Source: Pseudomonadota bacterium (GTDB lineage Bacteria; UBA10199; 2-02-FULL-44-16; JAAZCA01). From it: a stretch of 64,000 bases of DNA. Each line of letters starts with the position of its first letter. Position 1 is the stretch's first letter. Below the pieces are notes generated by a model, which was not told the origin of the DNA, made no database searches, and was given only the letters and a program-made list of their open reading frames with translations. Positions 24,530 through 63,310 of this stretch are shown here, one piece after another. The translations under genes and the position numbers were made by a program. The stretch spans positions 203-64,202 of the forward strand of contig JBDRBN010000074.1 in NCBI GenBank assembly GCA_043822785.1. The letters run 5' to 3'.

Positions 24530-25681
24530 TTATTTTGGAGTCAAATTGGCCGGCTCTTCAAGTATATCTAAGATAGATTGAGCACAGTAAACGCGGTCGC
24601 GTTTGGTTTTGCTGACTTCCTTTAAGATCATTAATTTCTGTAATTTATCAATAGCTCGCTGCGCTGTTGTGTAAGCAACCCCCAGAGTTTGGGCAGCTTT
24701 ATTAATTGTGATAAATGGATTTGCTGCGATTAAATCTACCAGTTGTATGGGAGTTTTGGTGGATGCCCCGGCAACCGACTTTCGCCAATTGACCAATTTT
24801 TGATTTATTCGCTCAGCTCTGCTCAGAGCATCCTCTGATTGACGGGCAACTCCATTGAGGAAATATTCTAACCATGTTTCCCATTCGCTTCGCTTGGTAA
24901 CACTTAGAAGCAGATCATAATAGTCATTCCTTGTAGCTTCAAAGAAAGCGCTGAGATAAAGAAGTGGGGTTGGCAATATTGCACGTTCAACTAAAAAGAG
25001 TGTGATTAGTAAGCGTCCTATACGTCCATTACCGTCAAGAAATGGATGAATGGCTTCAAATTGGTAGTGGATAAGAGCTGCTTGTACCAGTGGAGGAAGG
25101 GATAAATCGTGCATAAATATTTCCAAATCACCAAGACATGCCATCAATTCACTTGGGGGAGGCGGTACATAAGTTGCGTTTATCAATGTGCTGCCGGGCC
25201 TTCCTATCCAGTTTTGAGAACGGCGAAACTCACCCGGTGTTGCATGATCTCCTCGTACACCGTGCATAAGTTTTTTGTGTAATTCGCTTAAAAGACGAAG
25301 AGAAAGCGGAAGGGTTTTTAATCTTTTAATCCCATACTCAAGGGCTACAACATAGTTAGCCACTTCGCGAAGGTCGTCAGGGCTTCGGTCGACATGCGCA
25401 CCTGCTTCATTTGCCAACAGTTCTCCCAGCGTTGCCTGTGTGCCTTCGATGCGGCTTGAAAGAACTGCTTCACGCCTTATAAAAGGGCGCATCAATAAAT
25501 GGGGGTTGGGCAACCTGCCACCTTCTCCTGCCAGCTTGCCGATTAAGCGGTCGGCATCTGAGAGGACACGCGAAAGCTTTAATGACCATTTTAACGTGGG
25601 TGGTAATCTGTTGGGTATAAATGCAGTATAGCCCTCTGGACACCGAATATCCCTGCCGGAGGCCTCATTTTTGTGGGGCAT
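24530..25681 (-). CDS. Fic family protein (with inhibitory SxxxEG motif and C-terminal winged helix)
   Basis: Fic motif HPFLDGNGRIGR. Upstream inhibitory-helix-like motif SSRIEGT. Confidence 0.9.
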   Translation of the reverse strand: MPHKNEASGRDIRCPEGYTAFIPNRLPPTLKWSLKLSRVLSDADRLIGKLAGEGGRLPNPHLLMRPFIRREAVLSSRIEGTQATLGELLANEAGAHVDRSPDDLREVANYVVALEYGIKRLKTLPLSLRLLSELHKKLMHGVRGDHATPGEFRRSQNWIGRPGSTLINATYVPPPPSELMACLGDLEIFMHDLSLPPLVQAALIHYQFEAIHPFLDGNGRIGRLLITLFLVERAILPTPLLYLSAFFEATRNDYYDLLLSVTKRSEWETWLEYFLNGVARQSEDALSRAERINQKLVNWRKSVAGASTKTPIQLVDLIAANPFITINKAAQTLGVAYTTAQRAIDKLQKLMILKEVSKTKRDRVYCAQSILDILEEPANLTPK

Positions 25682-26148
25682 ATTATTCCTTTTCGACAGC
25701 GAAAATACCTTTGATTACTATTATCGGAATTATACAAAATCGATAATAAGCACGTCAAGCTGTTTTCATCATATATCACGACGCCAACACATTAGGATTT
25801 TGTCACCGATATCTCTGTCACTGCTGCTGTTCACTTGTCAATAATAGAGGCGAGAAAAGCGAGACATGCGAGAGACGCCAGCAACGTAAGAAACGCATTC
25901 CCCTCCTTTGTAAGGAGGGGCTAGGGGAGGTAGATCAAGAAAAGGCGAAATTGGAAATTGGATTTTCAGGAGGATGAAGGGGGTCAGAAGCGCCCCTTTA
26001 GGAAATTAACATCGGTGCTGTGCAGAGTTTATTTTTTTGTAATGGAGGATCGATGAAACATTTTCATAAAAGAATGTTGGCTGTCGGTTTCCTGTTGGCG
26101 ATGCTCGCCATGTTGGTCTTCATAATCCTTCAATCTTAGGACGGCGGG

Positions 26149-26220
26149 ATACCAGTAAGAAGCGGATTGCTGCTGGTATGCTTAACTACCAGTGGGAATC
26201 AGCTTGTTGTTGGTAGTTCA
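26149..26220. repeat. direct repeat copy A (~72 bp), pairs with 30383-30455
   Basis: ATACCAGTAAGAAGCGGATTGCTGCTGGTATGCTTAACTACCAGTGGGAATCAGCTTGTTGTTGGTAG has about 80% identity to copy B in the same orientation. Confidence 0.6.
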
Positions 26221-26236
26221 CGTTGCAAAGGCATCT

Positions 26237-26584
26237 TTACGTCTCCCGAATCATCATAAGCAACATCTTGAACCGCTCTGGGGCCTTGAGAGCGTGAGGC
26301 ACGCCCGCCGGCATCAAGATCGTTTCATCTTTGCCGACACGCCTGGGAACGCCACCGATCGTAATCTCCGCCAGGCCGTCCAGCACATAAACAAGCGCGT
26401 CGAATGGCGCCGTGTGCTCGCTGAGCCCCTGGCCCTTGTCAAAGGCGAACACTGTCACCGTCCCAGCCTTCTTCTTGATGATCTCGCGACTCACGACAGC
26501 GCCGGTCTGGTAGGCAACGAGCTCGAGCGCATTGCCGCCCTCGAACCTCTCGGTCGTCTTGCTCTCTTCATACTTAGTCATCAT
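26237..26584 (-). CDS. cupin domain protein
   Basis: 115 aa, small barrel-like sequence with GxxxxH-type motifs. Size and pattern suggest a cupin. Confidence 0.55.
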   Translation of the reverse strand: MMTKYEESKTTERFEGGNALELVAYQTGAVVSREIIKKKAGTVTVFAFDKGQGLSEHTAPFDALVYVLDGLAEITIGGVPRRVGKDETILMPAGVPHALKAPERFKMLLMMIRET

Positions 26585-26832
26585 TTCACCCTTCGCCTTT
26601 CACCTTTGAGCTTGGACCTTTTATCCTCCCCCATCCTCTCAAACATATATGCCACTAACGTCCCTCTGCCAAAGGTAATAATAAAAAAATCGTCAGGCGA
26701 AGCAATGGGCGAATAAATATAACACCATGAATTCTAATCTATATGTTTGCTGCGTCTGATGGGTTTTTTTAGACGAAATACACCAAAAACGATTATTGAT
26801 GAATCATATCGACAAGTTTTCCCATTTCACCC

Positions 26833-27831
26833 CTAGAGGTGACCTACGGTTTTGTTTTTCTCATACTTCTTTACCGCATCCTTAAGCTCGCCAGCGATTA
26901 CGAACCTCAAATCTCCTGGCTCTACCACCTCGGCGTGACTTCCAAATGACATCACCCAACTCTTCATCTCGGCCGTTCCTTCGACCGTCATAGAAAGATC
27001 AATTGAACCGTCGCTGTTTTCGATTATCTCCTGCGTAGGATGCCACTTGCGTTCCTTGACGTAATAGGCAACGTCCTTATCGAAATGAATCTTCACCGGA
27101 ATCGGGTCTCCGTCCATCACCCGAAAACGTCCTCTCGTAAACTCCTCTATCGAGAAGTCCTCGGGTATTTTGAACTTGTGCTCAGTTAGATTTGCCTTCT
27201 CTATCCTGTCGAGAACAAAGAGGCGCTGCTGCTTGCGTTCGTGGCAAAAACCGATCACATAAATCGACCCACCCATGAACCATACGTGATATGGATCGAC
27301 CCTTCGGTCCAGGACTTCACCCCTAGAAGATTTGTATCTCATTTCTATTGTGTGATGCTCAAGCAAAGCTGTGTTTATCACGTCCACGGTCTCTCGTTGC
27401 CCGCGGTAGTCCTTCCTGCCATGCAGTCCCACCTTGAATGTCTTCGCCAGCCCATCAATGAAGGCATGAGACTCCGGACTAAGCATTGAGCGCACCTTCT
27501 CAAAGGCGCTCCTGAGCGATTCGGAAAATATAGTTCCCTCAAATGCTTTGAGATGATCGTGTGCTATAGAAAGAGCCATAAGCTCGGTGAGCGTAAAAGG
27601 TATGGGCATTTTCGAACGATAGCCCTCGACGAATAACCATCGCTCAGCGCCTTCTTCTTTTTCGGAATAAAGCGGAAAGCCTGCATGTTCCAGTGCTTCC
27701 ATGTCGCGATATATTGTGCGGACGTTGCTCTCTAACTCAGACGCAAGCTCGGGCACCGATACCCCCATTCGTCTTGCCTCAAGTATTTGCAATATCTGCC
27801 ACTGCCTTGATATCTGATCTCCCCTGGGCAT
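26833..27831 (-). CDS. HTH-WYL domain transcriptional regulator (DriD/PafBC/BrxR-like)
   Basis: N-terminal DeoR-type HTH (ILQILEARRMGVSVPELASEL). A WYL-type central domain and a C-terminal extension follow. Start at MPRGD has a GGAGG RBS. Confidence 0.75.
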   Translation of the reverse strand: MPRGDQISRQWQILQILEARRMGVSVPELASELESNVRTIYRDMEALEHAGFPLYSEKEEGAERWLFVEGYRSKMPIPFTLTELMALSIAHDHLKAFEGTIFSESLRSAFEKVRSMLSPESHAFIDGLAKTFKVGLHGRKDYRGQRETVDVINTALLEHHTIEMRYKSSRGEVLDRRVDPYHVWFMGGSIYVIGFCHERKQQRLFVLDRIEKANLTEHKFKIPEDFSIEEFTRGRFRVMDGDPIPVKIHFDKDVAYYVKERKWHPTQEIIENSDGSIDLSMTVEGTAEMKSWVMSFGSHAEVVEPGDLRFVIAGELKDAVKKYEKNKTVGHL

Positions 27832-27902
27832 CAGTACCTCCGTATGATGAAGCAAATCCTAAGTTAAAAACACGAAATCCTAAACGAATACAAACTGCAA
27901 GA

Positions 27903-29144
27903 TCACATCACGAGATTCTCCTCTTCTTCATCCTCGTCGACGTTTTTGCGCCTGACCAGCCGCGTGCTCTTCGTAGCCTTCACCTTTACCATATCCGCAA
28001 GAGGCTTTGGCACCTCTACCAGCCAGCTGTGTTTCTTCGCATAAGATTTGAACACCGGGCCGTTTAGCCTCACAAGATCGTCCCAAATTCCCAGAGCATG
28101 AAGACCAGCCTCGAACTCGTCGCGATAAGGGTCTTTCGAGTGGGGATAGTCCAGCGCAATGTCGTCGTGTATGTTGAGTGTCCGGCTGGCGCCAAAGACA
28201 CGATCGTAACCCTTTTTCATGGCCCACTGTATAGCAGCCTCTGTTATCGCCGTCTGGTCCTCGGCCAGAACGTGCAACTCGGCTTCCAGCTCCTTTTTCT
28301 TCCTGTCGATTACAGTGAGCCTGTTCACAAGGTCAACACCCTCTTCATTCCTGTACTCGTCCTTAGGGAGCACGTCGATGCGAAACTTGTGTGCGAAGAG
28401 CGGGCATATATCCTGATATGCGCAATAGCTGCAAAGGCCACTCTCTTTCGGTGGGAATTTGTCGGCAGCCTCGATTTGGTCTATCAGAGCTATTGTGCTC
28501 TTTTTGACATCCTCGAGCTGCTCAGCAGTTCTAGAAGAGCGCATTTCTTTATCGAAGACAACGTAGTGCCAGACAAGATCGGCTTTCTTCACATCCGGCC
28601 AGGCCTGCCTGAGTCCGATCTCGTACAGGGCAAGCTGGCGATCGCGATCAAGATATTCTTGCAGAGGAAGCGTGCCGGAAGTTTTATAATCGTGTATCTC
28701 GTAGAAGCCGTCCTCTTTCTCCACTATCCTGTCTAGATACCCCCTGACCCGATGGGTCTGGTTGTTGTCCAGACCGATCATGAGCTGTTTCTCTATTCCA
28801 AGGTTCTTTCCCTGATCAAACGGCGCGTACCGATCGTAGTATTTCTCGATCGCATCAAGGCCTATCCGACGATAATCTTCGGCCGTGCGGTCCGTCCGGA
28901 TTACAAAGACATGCTCGCCGAAGTTTCTGTCCCAGAGATCGTTGAAGAGGGCCTTTAGATCTTCTGCGGTGTTGTCGCGGAAGGAGCGCTCGGCGTAGAG
29001 CTTCTCCATAACTTCATGAAAGCGCTTTCCCATGAAAGCCTCGATTGAGTCCTCTTCGCGCTTTATGCGATCGATATACTTGTACTTGTATTGCAACGGG
29101 CAATTTTCGTACGTAGAAAGTCTGCTATGAGAATAGACAGTCAT
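27903..29144 (-). CDS. Cas4/RecB-like PD-(D/E)XK nuclease with Fe-S cysteine cluster and C-terminal extension
   Basis: N-terminal YSHSRLSTYENCPLQYKYKYI and nuclease motifs EIHDYKTSG and QLALYE. C-terminal CSYCAYQDICP gives a four-Cys cluster together with the N-terminal Cys. About 150 extra C-terminal residues end in an acidic tail. Start taken at MTVYSH, which has a GGGGAGGTG RBS. Confidence 0.7.
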   Translation of the reverse strand: MTVYSHSRLSTYENCPLQYKYKYIDRIKREEDSIEAFMGKRFHEVMEKLYAERSFRDNTAEDLKALFNDLWDRNFGEHVFVIRTDRTAEDYRRIGLDAIEKYYDRYAPFDQGKNLGIEKQLMIGLDNNQTHRVRGYLDRIVEKEDGFYEIHDYKTSGTLPLQEYLDRDRQLALYEIGLRQAWPDVKKADLVWHYVVFDKEMRSSRTAEQLEDVKKSTIALIDQIEAADKFPPKESGLCSYCAYQDICPLFAHKFRIDVLPKDEYRNEEGVDLVNRLTVIDRKKKELEAELHVLAEDQTAITEAAIQWAMKKGYDRVFGASRTLNIHDDIALDYPHSKDPYRDEFEAGLHALGIWDDLVRLNGPVFKSYAKKHSWLVEVPKPLADMVKVKATKSTRLVRRKNVDEDEEEENLVM

Positions 29145-29253
29145 CTCGATCACCTCCCCTGGCCCGAATGGGCTCTGATAATAAAATATAGCAATTATAT
29201 CTGCAAGCCATGCCTGCTTAGCCAAACTTCGCACTTTTTTATCTTCAGATACG

Positions 29254-29664
29254 TTATCCAGACGCAACCACGCATTCGCACACGTTAAGCAGCCGTATGA
29301 TAAAGCGCCAGGCGTCGCGCGTGGGAAACTCCATACTAAATTCAGCATGATTCTCATTTTTGCGACAGCTGACTTTTAGGATGGAGATATCATCGTTTCT
29401 GTATTGAAGCCTGAACTGCACGCCGGAAACACTAGGACGACCTGGGATCGTAAGGTTTCCCTCTATAATGAACCTTCTTATGACGTCCAGTAATGTCTCT
29501 CCATCCGCCCATAAGTATTCCTCGTGGACCACAAAGCCCGAACACCCGCGCGAGGGTTTAATCCGAAGCTGAACGCTCAGACCATAACCCTCAAATCGAC
29601 TCACCGGTCTCACGTCCAGAAAAGCACCCTTATAGCCTTTCAGCCATAGTCTAGGCATTATCAC
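29254..29664 (-). CDS. hypothetical protein (136 aa) upstream of the nuclease
   Basis: ORF on the same strand 110 bp upstream of the nuclease. No recognisable domain. Confidence 0.4.
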   Translation of the reverse strand: MIMPRLWLKGYKGAFLDVRPVSRFEGYGLSVQLRIKPSRGCSGFVVHEEYLWADGETLLDVIRRFIIEGNLTIPGRPSVSGVQFRLQYRNDDISILKVSCRKNENHAEFSMEFPTRDAWRFIIRLLNVCECVVASG

Positions 29665-29793
29665 CTCCTGCTAGAATCATACCCCAGTAGTGCGTCATCT
29701 AAGGTCACCATAACTTTTCTGGCCCTGCCTGATCTCATGGCCCTGCCTGTCACACCACTGCCTTACACTTAAGACAAGGAAAGGGGGGTTGTT

Positions 29794-30237
29794 ATGAACA
29801 AGATAATCTCTATAGCTATTTGCCTCGCGGCGGTCGTGCTCTTATCAATCGAGGCTTATGGGCAGACACATATCGGCAAATACAGTGCTAATCCATATCA
29901 GACGGATTCGACGAGCAACCCCTACGGCGCGGGCAGCCCGTATCGCTCGGACAGCATAAACAATCCGTACGGCAAATACGGAAGTCCCTACAGCAACGAG
30001 TCGGTAAACAACCCTTACGCAACTGACGCACCCAAGCTCTACGACAACGATGGCAACTACCGAGGCAGGCTTAGCAACAACCCGTATGACGCTGACTCTA
30101 CTTCAAACCCTTATGGACGATACGGCAGCCCGTATTCGCCGGACAGCATCAACAACCCCTATGGCGCTGGAAGTCCATACAGGCTGGACAGCCCGAACAA
30201 CCCGTATGGGCAGGGGCTCGATATGTATGGAGATTAA
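29794..30237 (+). CDS. secreted tandem-repeat protein (NPYG/SPY repeats)
   Basis: Signal peptide MNKIISIAICLAAVVLLSIEAYG. At least 8 repeats of (S/N)NPYGxxGSPYxxDSxNNPY follow. Confidence 0.6.
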   Translation: MNKIISIAICLAAVVLLSIEAYGQTHIGKYSANPYQTDSTSNPYGAGSPYRSDSINNPYGKYGSPYSNESVNNPYATDAPKLYDNDGNYRGRLSNNPYDADSTSNPYGRYGSPYSPDSINNPYGAGSPYRLDSPNNPYGQGLDMYGD

Positions 30238-30382
30238 ATAACAACCGGCTTCCTACTGGTAGATTAGATTTTGCTCTTTGTTCAGCAAGGTGAACAGGCG
30301 TAAATCATAAATTTCAACTCGCGTTTTATTTGCATGTGATTTCAGCAGGTTGGTGGGGGTAGAAGCGGTTCCCTAGTTTCAT

Positions 30383-30455
30383 TCACCAGTAGAAAGCTGA
30401 TTGCTAATGGTATGCATAATTACCAGTAGGAATCAGCTTCCTATTGGTAGTTTCC
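30383..30455. repeat. direct repeat copy B (~73 bp), pairs with 26149-26220
   Basis: TCACCAGTAGAAAGCTGATTGCTAATGGTATGCATAATTACCAGTAGGAATCAGCTTCCTATTGGTAG. Confidence 0.6.
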
Positions 30456-30967
30456 ATATTTGCGTGATTCACAACTCCTCGAAAAATAGAGGATTCAATT
30501 ATGACAACTGTACAGAATCTGTACAGACTGTATCGATTCTGGTCAGTGTGGAATTCTTGAGAAGGAGGATGTGGTCACAAATTGTGACCAGTTCAGTGCA
30601 TATTCACCATAATATTTGTAATTTCAAGCGCTTACAATCTTGAGGTTCCAAATTGGAACCTCAAAGATGTTTTGAAGAGTTAGAAAAAACAGTTGCCACC
30701 CACGACAAAGCGATCTGCTCTTTATTTGATGCAATAAGAAAGCTGAGGGGGCGGGCTGCTTTCCGCCCCCTCACCCTGAGCGAAGCGCCTGGAAGGACGC
30801 GGAGTCGAAGGGTCCCCCTGCAACCAGTAAAACCTAAGCAAATTGGATTTATAAAAGGAAAAGATGGGTGACTTAGGGTTTCACCACAAATACGAAATTG
30901 GCACTGCTGTCGCGTTAGAGGTGTTAACTGGTTGAAATATAAGAATTCATTTTTCTCATGACTAGGT

Positions 30968-31052
30968 GTCATTGCGAGGAGCGTTTAGCGACGAAGCAAT
31001 CTCCCGCAAACACAGGTTATAAGGGGATTGCTTCGCTTTGCTCGCAATGACA
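30968..31052. repeat. palindromic REP/MITE-like element copy 1
   Basis: GTCATTGCGAGGAGC...CGACGAAGCAATCTCC...GGGGATTGCTTCG...GCTCGCAATGACA. Confidence 0.7.
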
Positions 31053-31123
31053 TCCATGAAAAACAAGCAGTTCTAACGCGACAGCAGTGGTTGCTTGGAA
31101 TTTGGAATTTAAAGTGAGTTTAA

Positions 31124-33426: not shown

Positions 33427-33520
33427 GTCATTGCGAGGAGTCCCGTTTTGCGGGACGACGAAGCAATCTCCGTGAGTAATGGAGATCGCCACGCCCGCTG
33501 TTAGCGGGCTCGCGATGACA
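33427..33520. repeat. palindromic REP/MITE-like element copy 2
   Basis: GTCATTGCGAGGAGTCCCG...CGACGAAGCAATCTCC...GGAGATCGCC...GCTCGCGATGACA. Confidence 0.7.
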
Positions 33521-34249: not shown

Positions 34250-34723
34250 ATGAAAAAGAAAATACCAACAGACATAAAGATAATTGCAAAGAACAAGAAG
34301 GCATTCTTTGACTATCATATTGAAGACAAGTTCGAGGCCGGCCTTGTGCTTGAAGGCAGCGAGGTGAAGAGCCTAAGGGATGGAAAGGCATCTTTATCTG
34401 ACTCTTTTGCGATAATTAAGAATGCAGAAGTATGGCTGTTGCATGCGCACATTGCCCAGTATGCGCCAGCCTCATATGCAAATCACGAACCAAAAAGAGC
34501 GCGAAAGCTTTTGATGCATAAAGCCCAGATCATAAAGCTTACCACAAAGCTAAAGGAGCGTGGATATACGCTCGTGCCCACCATGATCTACTTCAAGAAA
34601 GGCAGGGCAAAGGTGGAATTAGGGGTTGCGCACGGCAAGCGCAAATATGATAAGAGGGCAGCAATAAAGGCACGAGAATCAAAGAGAGAACTATCAAAGG
34701 CGATGAAGCGGAAACATACGTAG
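34250..34723 (+). CDS. smpB: SsrA-binding protein
   Basis: FDYHIEDKFEAGLVLEGSEVKSLR is a conserved SmpB sequence. The tmRNA gene lies immediately downstream. Confidence 0.92.
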   Translation: MKKKIPTDIKIIAKNKKAFFDYHIEDKFEAGLVLEGSEVKSLRDGKASLSDSFAIIKNAEVWLLHAHIAQYAPASYANHEPKRARKLLMHKAQIIKLTTKLKERGYTLVPTMIYFKKGRAKVELGVAHGKRKYDKRAAIKARESKRELSKAMKRKHT

Positions 34724-34872
34724 ATGCAAGCAACGTAACCCCTCTACGTTTCTCGCTTTTCTCGCATGTCTCGCCTTTCTCGCTTTTGTGGTATAATATA
34801 GATGTAGCGGTTCTTTGATAATTGAATATGGTGGCGCCCCCCGAACACTCATCAGCCAGCTGGTGAGCGCTC

Positions 34873-35459
34873 GGGGGGCGAAGAGATTTCGACGTGGACG
34901 ATGGAGTATGCGCGGCATGCCGACCTGTCAGTAAGTCGATAAACTATTGGCAAAACCATTAAGTGCCGAGCCTATGGCTCTTGCTGCCTAACTATAGGTA
35001 GCACGTCAACCGGATGACGCCCGCTAATCCGGAAGACGCCGCTAGCGGGCTTTGCTCTCTCAAGTTCTCCCTGGCACGAAAGAGCAAGACCCAGCAGGGA
35101 TAGCTTAAGCGAAATTCTTTCCTTGGGAGCTCGGTTAAGCGAAACTAAATACAAGGAATAAGCATGTAGAAGCGCACATAAAATCTTCGCGGACGGGAGT
35201 GCGATCAAAGGTCGCCTCGGGAGGTAACTCCCGATGAAAAACCCGGCTTACATCAGGGAAACCCTACCCTTGCGTCGTTCCCGCAAGGCGGGCGATCCTG
35301 AGGGGTGAAAGCCCTGCAGAGACTGTAATGATAGAAGGTACTATCGGAAAACGATAAATCTAAACCTTCTATAATACGCTGGGCTCCCTGTTAAAGGGAT
35401 GAAGAGATAGTCCATGCCGCAATGAAAATTGCGGATCACATGTCTCCCCGCCTCCACCA
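34873..35459 (+). ncRNA. ssrA: tmRNA (ssrA), unusually long
   Basis: 5' GGGGGCGAAGAGATTTCGACG and 3' CGCCTCCACCA can form a 7 bp acceptor stem. An in-frame tag ORF GCA AAA CCA TTA AGT GCC GAG CCT ATG GCT CTT GCT GCC TAA (AKPLSAEPMALAA) lies at 34950-34991. Located directly downstream of smpB. No canonical GGTTCGA T-loop could be found, and the 587 nt length is atypical. Confidence 0.6.
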
Positions 35460-40961: not shown

Positions 40962-40982
40962 AAGAATAATTAGAAAATGGAT

Positions 40983-41067
40983 GTCATTGCGAGCGAAGCG
41001 AAGCAATCCCCTCAGCAAACGTGTCCGCTGGAGATTGCTTCGTCGCTTAACGCTCCTCGCAATGACA
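40983..41067. repeat. palindromic REP/MITE-like element copy 4
   Basis: GTCATTGCGAGCGAAGCGAAGCAATCCCC...GGAGATTGCTTCGTCGC...CTCGCAATGACA. Confidence 0.7.
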
Positions 41068-41102
41068 TCTCTTACCTTCATATCTTTCTCTGATCGCATC
41101 AC

Positions 41103-53499: not shown

Positions 53500-53509
53500 C
53501 CTTTCTAGA

Positions 53510-53617
53510 TGTCATTGCGAGCGAAGCGAAGCAATCTCCTCAACCTCATGAGATTGCTTCGTCGCGGAGCCTACCCTGAGCAACGTCGAAGGGCTCCTCG
53601 CAATGACAATTTGCGAA
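53510..53617. repeat. palindromic REP/MITE-like element copy 5
   Basis: GTCATTGCGAGCGAAGCGAAGCAATCTCC...GAGATTGCTTCGTCGC...CTCGCAATGACA. Confidence 0.7.
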
Positions 53618-61359: not shown

Positions 61360-61431
61360 GTCATTGCGAGGAGCGCCAGCGACGAAGCAATCTCATAGCA
61401 TGGAGATTGCTTCGCTTTGCTCGCAATGACA
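61360..61431. repeat. palindromic REP/MITE-like element copy 6
   Basis: GTCATTGCGAGGAGCGCCAGCGACGAAGCAATCTC...GGAGATTGCTTCGCTTTGCTCGCAATGACA. Confidence 0.7.
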
Positions 61432-63212: not shown

Positions 63213-63310
63213 GTCATCGCGAGGAGCAGAGCACTCAAGGCTTGAGTGCTCTGCGACGTGGCGATCTCCAAGGATTGAGGAGATTGCTTCGGCTTCGCCT
63301 CGCAATGACA
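63213..63310. repeat. palindromic REP/MITE-like element copy 7
   Basis: GTCATCGCGAGGAGC...GGAGATTGCTTCGGCTTCGCCTCGCAATGACA. Confidence 0.65.

What the first reader, a model, noticed from the sequence alone, without database searches (positions are those of the whole stretch)
26149..30455. A ~4.3 kb cassette bounded by ~72 bp direct repeats carries a WYL regulator, a Cas4-like Fe-S nuclease, an unknown ORF and a secreted repeat protein
Two ~72 bp sequences with about 80% identity lie in the same orientation at 26149-26220 and 30383-30455. They share the core TACCAGTAG...GATTGCT..TGGTATGC.TAA.TACCAGT.GGAATCAGCTT...TTGGTAG. Each has internal dyad symmetry (TGGTATGC..TAA.TACCA).

Between them sit five genes: cupin (-), HTH-WYL regulator (-), a Cas4/RecB-like PD-(D/E)XK nuclease with a 4-Cys cluster and a ~150 aa C-terminal extension of unknown function (-), a 136 aa unknown ORF (-), and a secreted NPYG tandem-repeat protein (+).

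Direct-repeat-bounded segments suggest insertion by site-specific or homologous recombination. WYL regulators such as BrxR/CapW, DriD and PafBC control phage-defence or DNA-damage operons. The hyp136-nuclease-WYL unit is therefore a candidate stress- or phage-responsive nuclease module, and possibly an undescribed defence system. The same region also holds Fic, Mth938-like and a truncated glycosyltransferase, consistent with accessory DNA.
Basis: partly seen in the sequence, partly recalled or inferred. Interest (0 to 1): 0.72.

Follow-up and report, generated by a model that had tools for sequence, protein, structure and literature searches.

The report
REP repeats flanking a WYL-nuclease operon
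The two 70-bp repeats are ordinary dispersed palindromic (REP/REPIN-type) elements rather than the ends of a mobile cassette, but between them lies a conserved, uncharacterised three-gene operon (Whirly-fold protein, iron-sulfur nuclease, ssDNA-sensing WYL regulator) that probably responds to DNA damage or phage attack.

Summary
The repeats and the five genes are real. The cassette reading is not supported.

**The repeats.** Each ~68-nt repeat is a doublet of two inverted ~29-nt hairpin units that folds into one long hairpin, which is REPIN architecture.
- A fifth, solo unit sits just after the NPYG gene.
- A metagenome contig (L019), 100% identical to the right repeat plus 61 nt of its flank, continues into a REP-associated tyrosine transposase (RAYT) gene flanked by further units.
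- A 53%-identical RAYT in another organism is flanked by related hairpins.
- The two copies share no identical run longer than 11 nt. No recombinase lies nearby.
- No other locus carrying the genes has these repeats.

**The conserved unit.** What recurs is a three-gene operon:
- a Cas4/AddB-type 4-Cys PD-(D/E)XK nuclease with a Gp157/Gam-like C-terminal domain;
- a DriD/PafBC-like HTH-WYL-WCX regulator.

It recurs in at least six other metagenomic loci with different flanks. Cupin never recurs, and the NPYG gene recurs in one other lineage only. No PADLOC system matches.

**Inferred function.** It is most likely an ssDNA-triggered DNA-processing module. DNA repair is somewhat more likely than phage defence.

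The parts
26151..26218 (+). Left REPIN-like doublet. Two inverted ~29-nt REP units (26152-26176 and 26189-26213) are separated by an 8-nt spacer. It starts 11 nt after the stop of a 28-aa ORF on the + strand and ends 18 nt before the stop of the cupin gene on the - strand.
   Evidence: Folds as one long hairpin at -40.3 kcal/mol on the + strand (z -6.5) against -22.4 on the - strand.
30385..30452 (+). Right REPIN-like doublet (units 30386-30410 and 30423-30447). It is 84% identical to the left copy and in the same orientation.
   Evidence: Window 30324-30449 is 100% identical to L019 1160-1035. L019 then continues into a RAYT gene instead of the window sequence.
30235..30261 (-). Solo, degenerate REP half-unit overlapping the stop codon of the NPYG gene.
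   Evidence: 3-4 mismatches to the unit consensus.
29254..29658 (-). First gene of the operon: a 134-aa protein with a predicted Whirly/sPC4 fold (beta4-alpha-beta4-alpha). It is a putative single-stranded nucleic-acid binder.
27903..29144 (-). Second gene: a 413-aa Cas4/AddB-type PD-(D/E)XK nuclease with a 4-Cys cluster (C15, C238, C241, C247). Residues ~256-413 form a C-terminal domain that resembles free-standing phage Gp157/Gam-like proteins.
   Evidence: PDDEXK_1 3.5e-34 and Cas_Cas4 3.3e-6. More than 2000 full-length homologues. Invariant D138, E149, D152, K154, Q170, Y174 and the four Cys. DUF7307 in homologues. C-terminal model pLDDT 88 with BFVD hits at E 3e-5. No PDB fold match.
26833..27831 (-). 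Third gene: a wHTH-WYL-WCX transcription regulator. Its closest solved relatives are DriD and PafBC/PafC.
   Evidence: HTH_11, WYL and WCX all score above their Pfam cut-offs. DriD 8tp8 E 6.8e-18. Five of 11 DriD ssDNA-contact residues are conserved or conservatively replaced. The start at 27831 (MPRGDQ...) matches homologues.
29659..29793 (.). Divergent promoter region between the operon and the NPYG gene. It contains two direct copies of TGGCCCTGCCTG (29721-29732 and 29739-29750), which are a candidate operator.
   Evidence: Read directly from the sequence. The L022 upstream region has similar GGGCAGGG/CAGGAAAGG elements. The consensus promoter scan was uninformative.
29794..30237 (+). NPYG/SPY tandem-repeat protein with a signal-peptide-like N-terminus, transcribed divergently from the operon.
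   Evidence: repeat family D3. A 74%-identical homologue lies ~1.4 kb upstream of the module in L028/L029. It is absent from the other module loci.
26237..26584 (-). Cupin_2 protein. It is a local neighbour, not part of the conserved module.
   Evidence: Pfam 6e-10. No cupin homologue in any other module locus.
24530..25681 (-). SoFic-like Fic protein (Fic_N + Fic + C-terminal HTH), located outside the repeat-bounded interval.
   Evidence: PADLOC SoFic 5.1e-120. Pfam Fic_N/Fic. NCBIfam SoFic scores 169.8 bits, below its cut-off of 550.

Best explanation
Two unrelated things overlap here.

**(1) The ~70-bp direct repeats are REPIN-type elements.**
- Each is a doublet of a ~29-nt repetitive extragenic palindrome, of the kind mobilised by a REP-associated tyrosine (HUH/Y1) transposase.
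- They sit, as REPs usually do, just downstream of genes.
- They may act secondarily as RNA 3' hairpins.
- They do not delimit or mobilise the DNA between them.

**(2) The real functional unit inside is a three-gene operon, transcribed leftward from a promoter at ~29.66-29.79 kb.**
- The genes are a Whirly-fold protein, a Cas4/AddB-type Fe-S PD-(D/E)XK nuclease with a Gp157/Gam-like C-terminal domain, and a DriD/PafBC/CapW-class wHTH-WYL-WCX regulator.
- Proposed mechanism (inferred): the WYL regulator binds the operon promoter. When single-stranded DNA accumulates, from DNA damage, stalled replication or phage replication, ssDNA binds its WYL domain and switches transcription on.
- The Whirly-fold protein would then coat or recognise ssDNA. 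The nuclease would resect or degrade DNA ends. Its products could reinforce induction.
- The physiological role is more likely DNA-damage processing (~45%) than dedicated anti-phage defence (~30%).
For: **REP/REPIN reading.**
- Unit structure and chance statistics.
- The hairpin is preserved between the two copies by one compensatory change and three G-T-preserving changes.
- L019 is 100% identical to window 30324-30449. It then encodes a 219-aa Y1 transposase: Pfam Y1_Tnp 5.4e-16; NCBIfam REP_Tyr_transpos 74.4 bits against IS200 27 bits. It has HVH at residues 56-58 and Y116 in RYIDKNP, and two or more further units on its far side.
- A 53%-identical RAYT in L025 lies between housekeeping genes. 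It is flanked by 2 + 3 related hairpins (CAGTAGGAAGCCACTTCCTACTG), with another copy 4.2 kb away at a gene's 3' end.
- These features match the published definitions of REPs, REPINs and REPtrons (PMC3733652, PMC3337134).

**Against a cassette.**
- The longest identical run between the copies is 11 nt.
- None of the ten genes scanned between 20.9 and 32.0 kb is a recombinase.
- No REP units occur in any other module locus.

**Operon.**
- Whirly-like + nuclease + WYL in the same order in L015, L016 and L024.
- Whirly-like + nuclease in L028/L029 and L031/L032, where the contigs end.
- Whirly-like + WYL without the nuclease in L022.
- Whirly-like and WYL co-occur in 5 of 5 loci where both positions are visible. 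The nuclease occurs alone, without either, in L013, L017 and L033.
- Domain and fold evidence.
- ssDNA sensing is experimentally established for DriD, PafBC and CapW (PMC9186387, PMC11804915, PMC11662680).
- Whirly/sPC4 domains are proposed ssDNA sensors of Shedu nucleases (bioRxiv 10.1101/2023.08.10.552793).
Against: **REP part.**
- The genome-wide copy number of the unit is unknown. Only 5 half-units are visible in 64 kb.
- The unit was absent from 185,579 reference genomes.
- There is no RAYT in the window.
- L019 is only 1.16 kb. It could be a chimeric assembly or a strain rearrangement, because its far side does not match the window.
- The RAYT scores just below NCBIfam's cut-off (74.4 against 80).

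**Operon part.**
- Nothing has been tested experimentally.
- Only 5 of 11 DriD ssDNA-contact residues are conserved.
- The Whirly assignment rests on a predicted model built from an 18-sequence alignment, at 9-10% sequence identity to the hits.
- The C-terminal domain has no solved-structure match.
- Intergenic gaps of 109 and 71 nt in this window leave room for internal promoters.
- Whether the regulator activates or represses cannot be told from sequence.
Confidence: 0.75

Rival explanations
1. Cassette reading. The two direct repeats are att-like or recombination sites, and the 4.2-kb segment between them was inserted, or can be excised, as one unit.
For: The repeats are in direct orientation and bracket accessory-looking genes. 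Flanking contexts of the module differ between genomes, so it does move.
Against: - Each repeat is a REPIN-like palindrome with a cognate RAYT elsewhere.
- A fifth unit lies inside the supposed cassette.
- The longest identical run is 11 nt, far below what homologous recombination is generally held to need (established knowledge).
- No integrase or recombinase is present.
- Other module loci lack the repeats and lack cupin; only L028/L029 share the NPYG gene.
Confidence: 0.05
2. The operon is a dedicated, undescribed anti-phage defence system. A WYL regulator de-represses a Whirly-guided Fe-S nuclease that degrades replicating phage DNA, by analogy with CapW/BrxR-controlled systems and Whirly-domain Shedu nucleases.
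For: - CapW/BrxR-type WYL regulators control diverse defence operons and sense ssDNA (PMC11662680, PMC9122601).
- Shedu type 1A nucleases use sPC4/Whirly sensor domains (bioRxiv 10.1101/2023.08.10.552793).
- Defence-flavoured neighbours: SoFic in the window and PDC-M05A/B in L015.
- Patchy distribution, variable context and fast divergence of the Whirly-like protein: 24-28% identity where WYL is 66% and the nuclease 53-60%.
- The cargo varies in L022, where the nuclease is missing and unknown genes follow.
Against: - No PADLOC system model matches beyond generic Cas4/WYL.
- The WYL protein's closest solved relatives are the DNA-damage activators DriD and PafBC/PafC, not BrxR or CapW.
- The nuclease family is large and often sits alone among housekeeping genes.
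- No PADLOC neighbours were found among the six flanking proteins tested in L016 and L022.
- It is not found on phage contigs or plasmids as a module. That last point is neutral.
Confidence: 0.3
3. The repeat units are subterminal hairpins or MITE-like derivatives (PATEs) of an ordinary IS200/IS605 insertion sequence, rather than REPs of a domesticated single-copy RAYT.
For: The L019 protein belongs to Pfam Y1_Tnp and misses the NCBIfam RAYT cut-off by 6 bits. Copy numbers of the transposase and of the units in the genome are unknown.
Against: - It scores 74 bits on the RAYT model against 27 on the IS200 model.
- At 219-229 aa it is longer than the 126-position NCBIfam IS200 transposase model.
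- In both L019 and L025 the gene is flanked by clusters of several units (2 + 2-3 and 2 + 3), not one hairpin per end.
- The L025 copy lies between a methyltransferase gene and efp and is the only copy within 20.7 kb.
Confidence: 0.1

Closest known systems
REPINs / REP elements with RAYT transposases (REPtrons), e.g. Pseudomonas fluorescens SBW25 and E. coli
   Same: - Short imperfect palindromes paired in inverted orientation into a ~70-nt hairpin.
- Located extragenically just downstream of genes.
- A Y1/HUH transposase gene is flanked by the same units.
- A GTAG tetranucleotide is present in the unit.
- Related RAYTs carry related units.
   Different: - Copy number could not be measured.
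- The host is an uncultured 'Pseudomonadota' MAG.
- GTAG lies within or at the edge of the stem, not as a clearly unpaired tag.
- The RAYT is not in the window and scores slightly below NCBIfam's family cut-off.
DriD (Caulobacter) and PafBC (mycobacteria): ssDNA-activated WYL regulators of SOS-independent DNA-damage responses
   Same: - Same wHTH-WYL-WCX architecture.
- They are the best solved-structure matches (DriD E 6.8e-18).
- The core WYL-domain ssDNA contacts are retained: Y168, R178, Y192, R204 and an aromatic residue at 206.
   Different: - Only ~20-25% identity by eye over the alignment (not computed).
- 6 of 11 contact residues differ.
- The gene is the last of a small dedicated operon rather than a global regulator.
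- The target site is unknown.
CapW/BrxR: WYL repressors of phage-defence operons
   Same: Same domain architecture. ssDNA is the ligand. The regulator is encoded in the operon it controls. The neighbouring cargo is variable.
   Different: CapW/BrxR are usually encoded upstream of, or divergent from, known defence systems. Here the regulator is last in the operon, and the cargo matches no described system.
Cas4 / AddB nuclease domain (Fe-S PD-(D/E)XK 5'-3' exonucleases) and phage Cas4-like exonucleases (phrog_69)
   Same: RecB-like catalytic motif, QxxxY motif, and a C-X(n)-C-X2-C-X5-C cluster.
   Different: - No cas genes or CRISPR array in the window.
- Below the TIGR00372 and AddB cut-offs.
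- No helicase-like part.
- Carries an extra ~150-aa Gp157/Gam-like (DUF7307-like) C-terminal domain.
Whirly / sPC4 family (plant Why1/Why2, trypanosome MRP1/2) and Whirly-type N-terminal domains of Shedu type 1A nucleases
   Different: - No sequence-level similarity (9-10% identity, no Pfam hit).
- A free-standing protein, not a fused domain.
- The partner nuclease is Cas4/AddB-type, not DUF4263.

Membership tests
REP / REPIN elements | Short (20-40 bp) imperfect palindrome able to form a stem-loop | tested here: met
   ~29-nt units such as TACCAGTAGGAATCAGCTTCCTATTGGTA, with an 11-12-bp stem and a 5-nt loop.
REP / REPIN elements | REPIN: two REPs in inverted orientation with a short spacer, together forming a long hairpin | tested here: met
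   Both 68-nt copies fold as one hairpin of 25-26 pairs with an 8-nt loop, at -34.6 and -40.3 kcal/mol, z about -6.5.
REP / REPIN elements | Cognate RAYT gene flanked by the same units (REPtron) | tested here: met
   - L019: a RAYT with a REPIN on one side and two or more units on the other. It is 100% identical to the window over 126 nt.
- L025: a related RAYT with related units on both sides.
- No RAYT lies in the window itself.
REP / REPIN elements | Many dispersed extragenic copies per genome | tested here: inconclusive
   Five half-units at three sites in 64 kb, all extragenic or at gene ends. The rest of the genome is not available. There were no true hits in the reference genomes.
REP / REPIN elements | GTAG (or CGTC) tag at one end of the palindrome (Di Nocera et al. 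2013) | tested here: inconclusive
   GTAG occurs in CCAGTAGG and at the 3' edge TTGGTAG, but inside or at the border of the stem rather than as a clearly unpaired tag (PMC3733652).
RAYT (REP-associated tyrosine transposase) | HUH motif, catalytic Tyr and a RAYT-specific profile | tested here: inconclusive
   HVH at 56-58 and Y116 in RYIDKNP. Pfam Y1_Tnp scores above its cut-off. NCBIfam REP_Tyr_transpos scores 74.4 bits, just under its cut-off of 80 and far above IS200 at 27 bits.
Site-specific recombination cassette / genomic island | Integrase or recombinase gene within or next to the element | tested here: not met
   Ten genes between 20.9 and 32.0 kb were assigned or scanned. None is a recombinase.
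Site-specific recombination cassette / genomic island | Flanking direct repeats with an identical core | tested here: not met
   The longest identical run is 11 nt. The repeats are palindromic REP doublets.
Site-specific recombination cassette / genomic island | The same gene set travels with the same repeats in other genomes, or an empty site exists | tested here: not met
   The other module loci carry only the three-gene core, have no REP units and share no flanks apart from the NPYG gene in L028/L029. An empty site could not be searched for.
wHTH-WYL-WCX transcription regulators | N-terminal wHTH, central WYL domain and C-terminal WCX domain | tested here: met
   HTH_11 42.6 bits, WYL 67.3 bits and WCX 68.8 bits, all above their cut-offs.
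wHTH-WYL-WCX transcription regulators | ssDNA-binding residues of the WYL pocket (DriD numbering) | tested here: inconclusive
   Y168, R178, Y192 and R204 are conserved, and W206 is replaced by F. S172, R176, K202, R207, Y240 and R288 are not conserved (PMC9186387).
Cas4 (CRISPR-associated) | RecB-like motif plus a 4-Cys Fe-S cluster | tested here: met
   D138, E149, D152, K154, Q170, Y174, C15, C238, C241 and C247 are invariant in 40 homologues.
Cas4 (CRISPR-associated) | Encoded with cas1/cas2 or a CRISPR array, and scores above the family cut-off | tested here: not met
   TIGR00372 scores 40.3 bits against a cut-off of 65. No CRISPR repeats or cas genes were found in the window.
Whirly / sPC4 fold | Tandem beta-beta-beta-beta-alpha repeats | tested here: met
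Shedu | DUF4263 nuclease domain | tested here: not met
   No Shedu or DUF4263 hit in PADLOC or Pfam.

The most novel reading that the evidence does not exclude
The Whirly-fold protein, the Fe-S Cas4/AddB-type nuclease with a Gam/Gp157-like end-binding domain, and the WYL regulator form an undescribed anti-phage (or anti-mobile-element) system. ssDNA from an invader would both induce the operon through the WYL domain and, through the Whirly-fold protein, direct the nuclease to the invader's replication intermediates.
Probability: 0.25. Interest if true: 0.7.

Novelty: new variant of a known kind. Interest (0 to 1): 0.45.

Why it matters
- **Annotation practice.** Pairs of REP/REPIN elements can mimic cassette boundaries in raw sequence. 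Here a 1.2-kb metagenome contig carrying the cognate RAYT was enough to reclassify them.
- **REP/RAYT range.** This extends REP/RAYT systems to an uncultured lineage. The REP stem sequence (CAGTAGGAA...TTCCTAYTG) is conserved between RAYT orthologues that are 53% identical.
- **The operon.** It joins three ssDNA-related parts that have not been described together. One of them is a very rare bacterial family with a predicted Whirly fold: about 25 clusters among 1.84 billion representative proteins.
- **If shown to be damage- or phage-inducible.** It would add a compact model for how WYL sensors couple ssDNA detection to a dedicated nuclease. It would also give bacterial free-standing Whirly-fold proteins a function.

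Tried and rejected
- **Reference genomes.** A scan of 185,579 genomes with the 19-nt half-unit returned 12 hits. All were single coding-sequence matches, most of them in one recurring conserved coding context, and none carried the full repeat. The source genome is therefore not in that collection and copy number could not be counted.
- **Metagenome scan cap.** No large-scale neighbourhood statistics for the nuclease could be made. The neighbourhoods rest on 12 exact-protein look-ups.
- **Exact look-ups.** The cupin and the radical-SAM neighbour were not on record. Population variants across the left repeat and right flank could not be compared.
- **RAYT in the window.** None found by tblastn.
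- **Rfam.** No family matches the repeats.
- **Whirly-like protein.** No hits in viral contigs or plasmids. The nuclease has only distant relatives on plasmids and one solitary relative on a viral contig.
- **Promoter/terminator scan.** At background level for promoters and uninformative for the operon.
- **Literature.** Searches found no paper describing a Whirly + Cas4-like + WYL module, and nothing on DUF7307.
- **Rejected readings.** CRISPR-associated Cas4, AddB, Shedu, and integron- or island-type cassette (see the membership tests).

Full report
**1. The observation**

The two direct repeats exist at 26151-26218 and 30385-30452. They match at 57 of 68 positions, in register and without gaps. 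They are not chance: a 19-nt half-unit pattern is found five times in the window at up to 3 mismatches, against 0.01 expected from shuffles.

In fact each repeat is an imperfect palindrome over its whole length. It is made of two ~29-nt units in inverted orientation (26152-26176 / 26189-26213 and 30386-30410 / 30423-30447) separated by 8 nt. Each unit is itself a small hairpin, for example TACCAGTAGGAA-TCAGC-TTCCTATTGGTA.

As single strands the repeats fold into one long hairpin of 25-26 pairs, at -40.3 and -34.6 kcal/mol with z about -6.5. A fifth, solitary and more degenerate unit lies at 30235-30261, overlapping the stop codon of the NPYG gene.

Eleven positions differ between the two copies:
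- one pair of changes is compensatory (A-T to G-C);
- three preserve pairing through G-T;
- two break a pair in one copy.

So the hairpin is what is kept.

- Cupin_2.
- An HTH_11-WYL-WCX regulator.
- A 413-aa PDDEXK_1/Cas4-like nuclease. Its four cysteines (C15, C238, C241, C247) and its D/E/K and QxxxY motifs are invariant in 40 homologues.
- A 134-136-aa ORF with no family hit.
- An NPYG-repeat protein with a signal-like N-terminus.

**2. What the repeats are**

No true copy was found in one genome from each of 185,579 species. The 12 hits to the half-unit were single coding-sequence matches.

A more specific 26-nt pattern found one metagenome contig, L019 (Ga0180007_10232664, 1160 bp). Its last 126 nt are 100% identical to window 30324-30449, that is 61 nt of unique left flank plus the right repeat. 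Exactly at the end of the repeat it departs from the window and runs into a 219-aa gene. That gene is a Y1/HUH transposase:
- Pfam Y1_Tnp 5.4e-16.
- Best NCBIfam model 'REP-associated tyrosine transposase', 74.4 bits against a cut-off of 80. The IS200 model scores only 27 bits.
- HVH at residues 56-58 and Tyr116 in RYIDKNP.

On the far side of the gene lie two more full units and a short related hairpin.

A 53%-identical homologue, on a 180-kb contig of another organism (L025), sits between a methyltransferase gene and efp. It is flanked by two units upstream and three downstream of a related hairpin, CAGTAGGAAGCCACTTCCTACTG. One more copy lies 4.2 kb away, immediately after a gene. The stem sequence CAGTAGGAA...TTCCTAYTG is therefore shared by the units that accompany two orthologous transposases.

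This is the published definition of the REP/RAYT system (PMC3337134, PMC3116915, PMC3733652):
- REPs are short palindromes, often carrying GTAG.
- REPINs are two REPs in inverted orientation forming a hairpin.
- REPtrons are RAYT genes flanked by their REPs.

The positions here fit as well. The left copy lies between the 3' ends of a 28-aa ORF and the cupin gene, and the right copy and the solo unit lie downstream of the NPYG gene. REPs are found mostly downstream of genes (PMC3733652).

The window also holds at least two other dispersed short palindromic repeat families (see 'noticed in passing'). This genome is therefore rich in such elements.

**3. Why it is not a cassette**

- The two copies share no identical run longer than 11 nt. 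From established knowledge, that is too short for homologous recombination and unlike an att core.
- No recombinase was found among the genes scanned from 20.9 to 32.0 kb.
- A unit of the same family lies inside the supposed cassette.
- The genes between the repeats do not travel together. In seven other loci only three of the five genes recur, never with these units and never with cupin.

Caveats:
- Copy number in the source genome is unknown.
- L019's far side does not match the window, so it is either a strain rearrangement at the repeat or an assembly chimera.

**4. The conserved unit**

The nuclease has more than 2000 full-length homologues of ~405 aa in uncultured bacteria. These include MAGs labelled Pseudomonadota, Omnitrophota and Schekmanbacteria. 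The source contig is an NCBI MAG labelled Pseudomonadota.

Its neighbourhoods fall into two kinds:
- **Alone among housekeeping genes**: L013, L017 and the viral-contig edge L033.
- **In the order small ORF - nuclease - WYL**: L015, L016 and L024, with 8-10-nt gene spacing in L015 and L016.

The small ORFs are homologous, at 24-28% identity with conserved R3, G24/G26, R32, S40, E47, W50 and two Cys. The family is very small: 18 clusters by the word-indexed search and 25 clusters among 1.84 billion representatives by full HMMER.

Further loci:
- L028/L029 and L031/L032 show small ORF - nuclease before the contig ends. The L031 nuclease is 84.5% identical to the window's.
- In L022 the small ORF (66% identical) is followed directly by the WYL gene (78% identical), with no nuclease.

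So the small ORF and the WYL gene co-occur in 5 of 5 loci where both positions are visible. The nuclease lies between them in four of those.

**5. What the parts are**

These are single-stranded nucleic-acid binders. The same fold has been proposed as the nucleic-acid sensor domain of type 1A Shedu nucleases (bioRxiv 10.1101/2023.08.10.552793).

*Nuclease.* It has a Cas4/AddB-type catalytic core and Fe-S cluster. It scores below the Cas4 and AddB family cut-offs, and there are no cas genes nearby. Its C-terminal ~150 residues model confidently (pLDDT 88) as a 43-residue helix followed by a small alpha/beta unit.
- There is no solved-structure match.
- It resembles free-standing phage proteins of 120-180 aa, including 'Siphovirus Gp157' and a 'host-nuclease inhibitor' (Gam-like). 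The best hit has E 3.3e-5 and TM 0.64.
- Some homologues hit Pfam DUF7307, 'Pam3 gp33-like'.

*Regulator.* It has the full wHTH-WYL-WCX architecture. Its closest solved relatives are DriD (E 6.8e-18) and PafC/PafBC. Five of eleven DriD ssDNA contacts are retained. ssDNA is the demonstrated ligand of DriD, PafBC and CapW (PMC9186387, PMC11804915, PMC11662680).

**6. Mechanism**

Shown here:
- gene order and its conservation;
- domain and fold assignments;
- catalytic and cluster residues.

Inferred:
- The WYL protein binds the 29659-29793 promoter. Candidate operator: two TGGCCCTGCCTG copies at 29721-29732 and 29739-29750.
- ssDNA produced by damage or by an invader switches the operon on.
- The Whirly-fold protein binds ssDNA.
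- The nuclease processes DNA ends. Its C-terminal domain may hold DNA ends or mediate dimerisation.

Points favouring repair or DNA-damage processing (~45%):
- the large, often solitary, housekeeping-context nuclease family;
- the DriD/PafBC-like regulator.

Points favouring defence (~30%):
- the CapW/BrxR and Shedu precedents;
- SoFic ~0.55 kb left of the left repeat;
- PDC-M05A/B next to the module in L015;
- variable contexts;
- the fast-evolving Whirly-like protein;
- loss or replacement of the nuclease in L022.

The flanks tested in L016 and L022 gave no PADLOC hits. The module is not on phage contigs or plasmids.

**7. Comparison and novelty**

The repeats are a new member of a known kind (REP/REPIN with RAYT). 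The operon is a new variant of a known kind, a WYL-controlled nuclease module. No PADLOC, Pfam, NCBIfam or PHROG model and no paper in the searchable library describes the combination. Its first gene belongs to a rare family without annotation.

**8. Verdict**

- Observation: confirmed.
- 'Cassette bounded by direct repeats': not supported.
- 'Candidate stress- or phage-responsive WYL-nuclease module': supported as a conserved unit, with function unproven.
- Interest: 0.45.

Noticed in passing
window 30964-31057, 40977-41070, 53508-53542, 61402-61431 (also 33454-33494, 53526-53570, 63248-63296): A second, more abundant dispersed palindromic repeat family with core GATGTCATTGCGAGCGAAGCGAAGCAATC. 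It has at least four intergenic copies in both orientations (families D9-D11, I1, I2, I5, I6, I11-I13). This shows the genome is rich in REP-like elements.
   Followed up: no
window 25850-25888 and 34745-34783; also 25900-25936 vs L015 3343-3379: A 39-nt inverted repeat (GCGAGAAAAGCGAGACATGCGAGAGACG..., 87% complementary) brackets the whole 25.9-34.8 kb region. It ends just upstream of the tmRNA gene. An adjacent 37-nt stretch is 95% identical to an intergenic stretch in an unrelated metagenome locus.
   Followed up: no
window 26053-26139 (+): A 28-aa hydrophobic ORF (MKHFHKRMLAVGFLLAMLAMLVFIILQS) with a GGAGGA ribosome-binding site. It ends 11 nt before the left repeat and may be a small membrane protein gene.
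   Followed up: no
L028 2793-3245 (-) and L029 802-1254 (-) vs window 29794-30237: A 74%-identical homologue of the NPYG-repeat protein lies ~1.4 kb upstream of the Whirly-like gene in another lineage. There the Whirly-like protein is only 24% identical and the nuclease 53%. Either the neighbourhood is partly syntenic or the module evolves much faster than its neighbour.
   Followed up: partly
L016 2241-4676 (-) and L031 1-1560 (-): A Peptidase_S8 (subtilase) gene lies divergently upstream of the module in two further loci. In L016 and L028/L029 an unannotated 175-aa ORF directly precedes the Whirly-like gene.
   Followed up: partly
L022 1093-1227 and 2390-4206: In a close relative the nuclease is missing between the Whirly-like and WYL genes. 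Two unannotated genes (224 and 381 aa) follow the WYL gene and may be an alternative cargo.
   Followed up: partly
window 24530-25681 (-): The Fic protein matches the PADLOC SoFic defence model almost end to end (5.1e-120) and carries a C-terminal HTH. It scores below NCBIfam's SoFic equivalog cut-off (169.8 against 550 bits).
   Followed up: no
window 34250-34723 and 34882-35198: smpB and the tmRNA gene lie ~4 kb to the right of the region. tmRNA genes are common island integration sites, but nothing here was linked to that.
   Followed up: no
L020 and L021 (window 28646-30308): Two independent assemblies (JGI 3300014656 and ENA) of a 99.6%-identical population both break at window ~30307. 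That point lies between the solo unit and the right repeat, 16 nt before L019 starts. It may mark a strain-variable or repeat-induced assembly break.
   Followed up: partly
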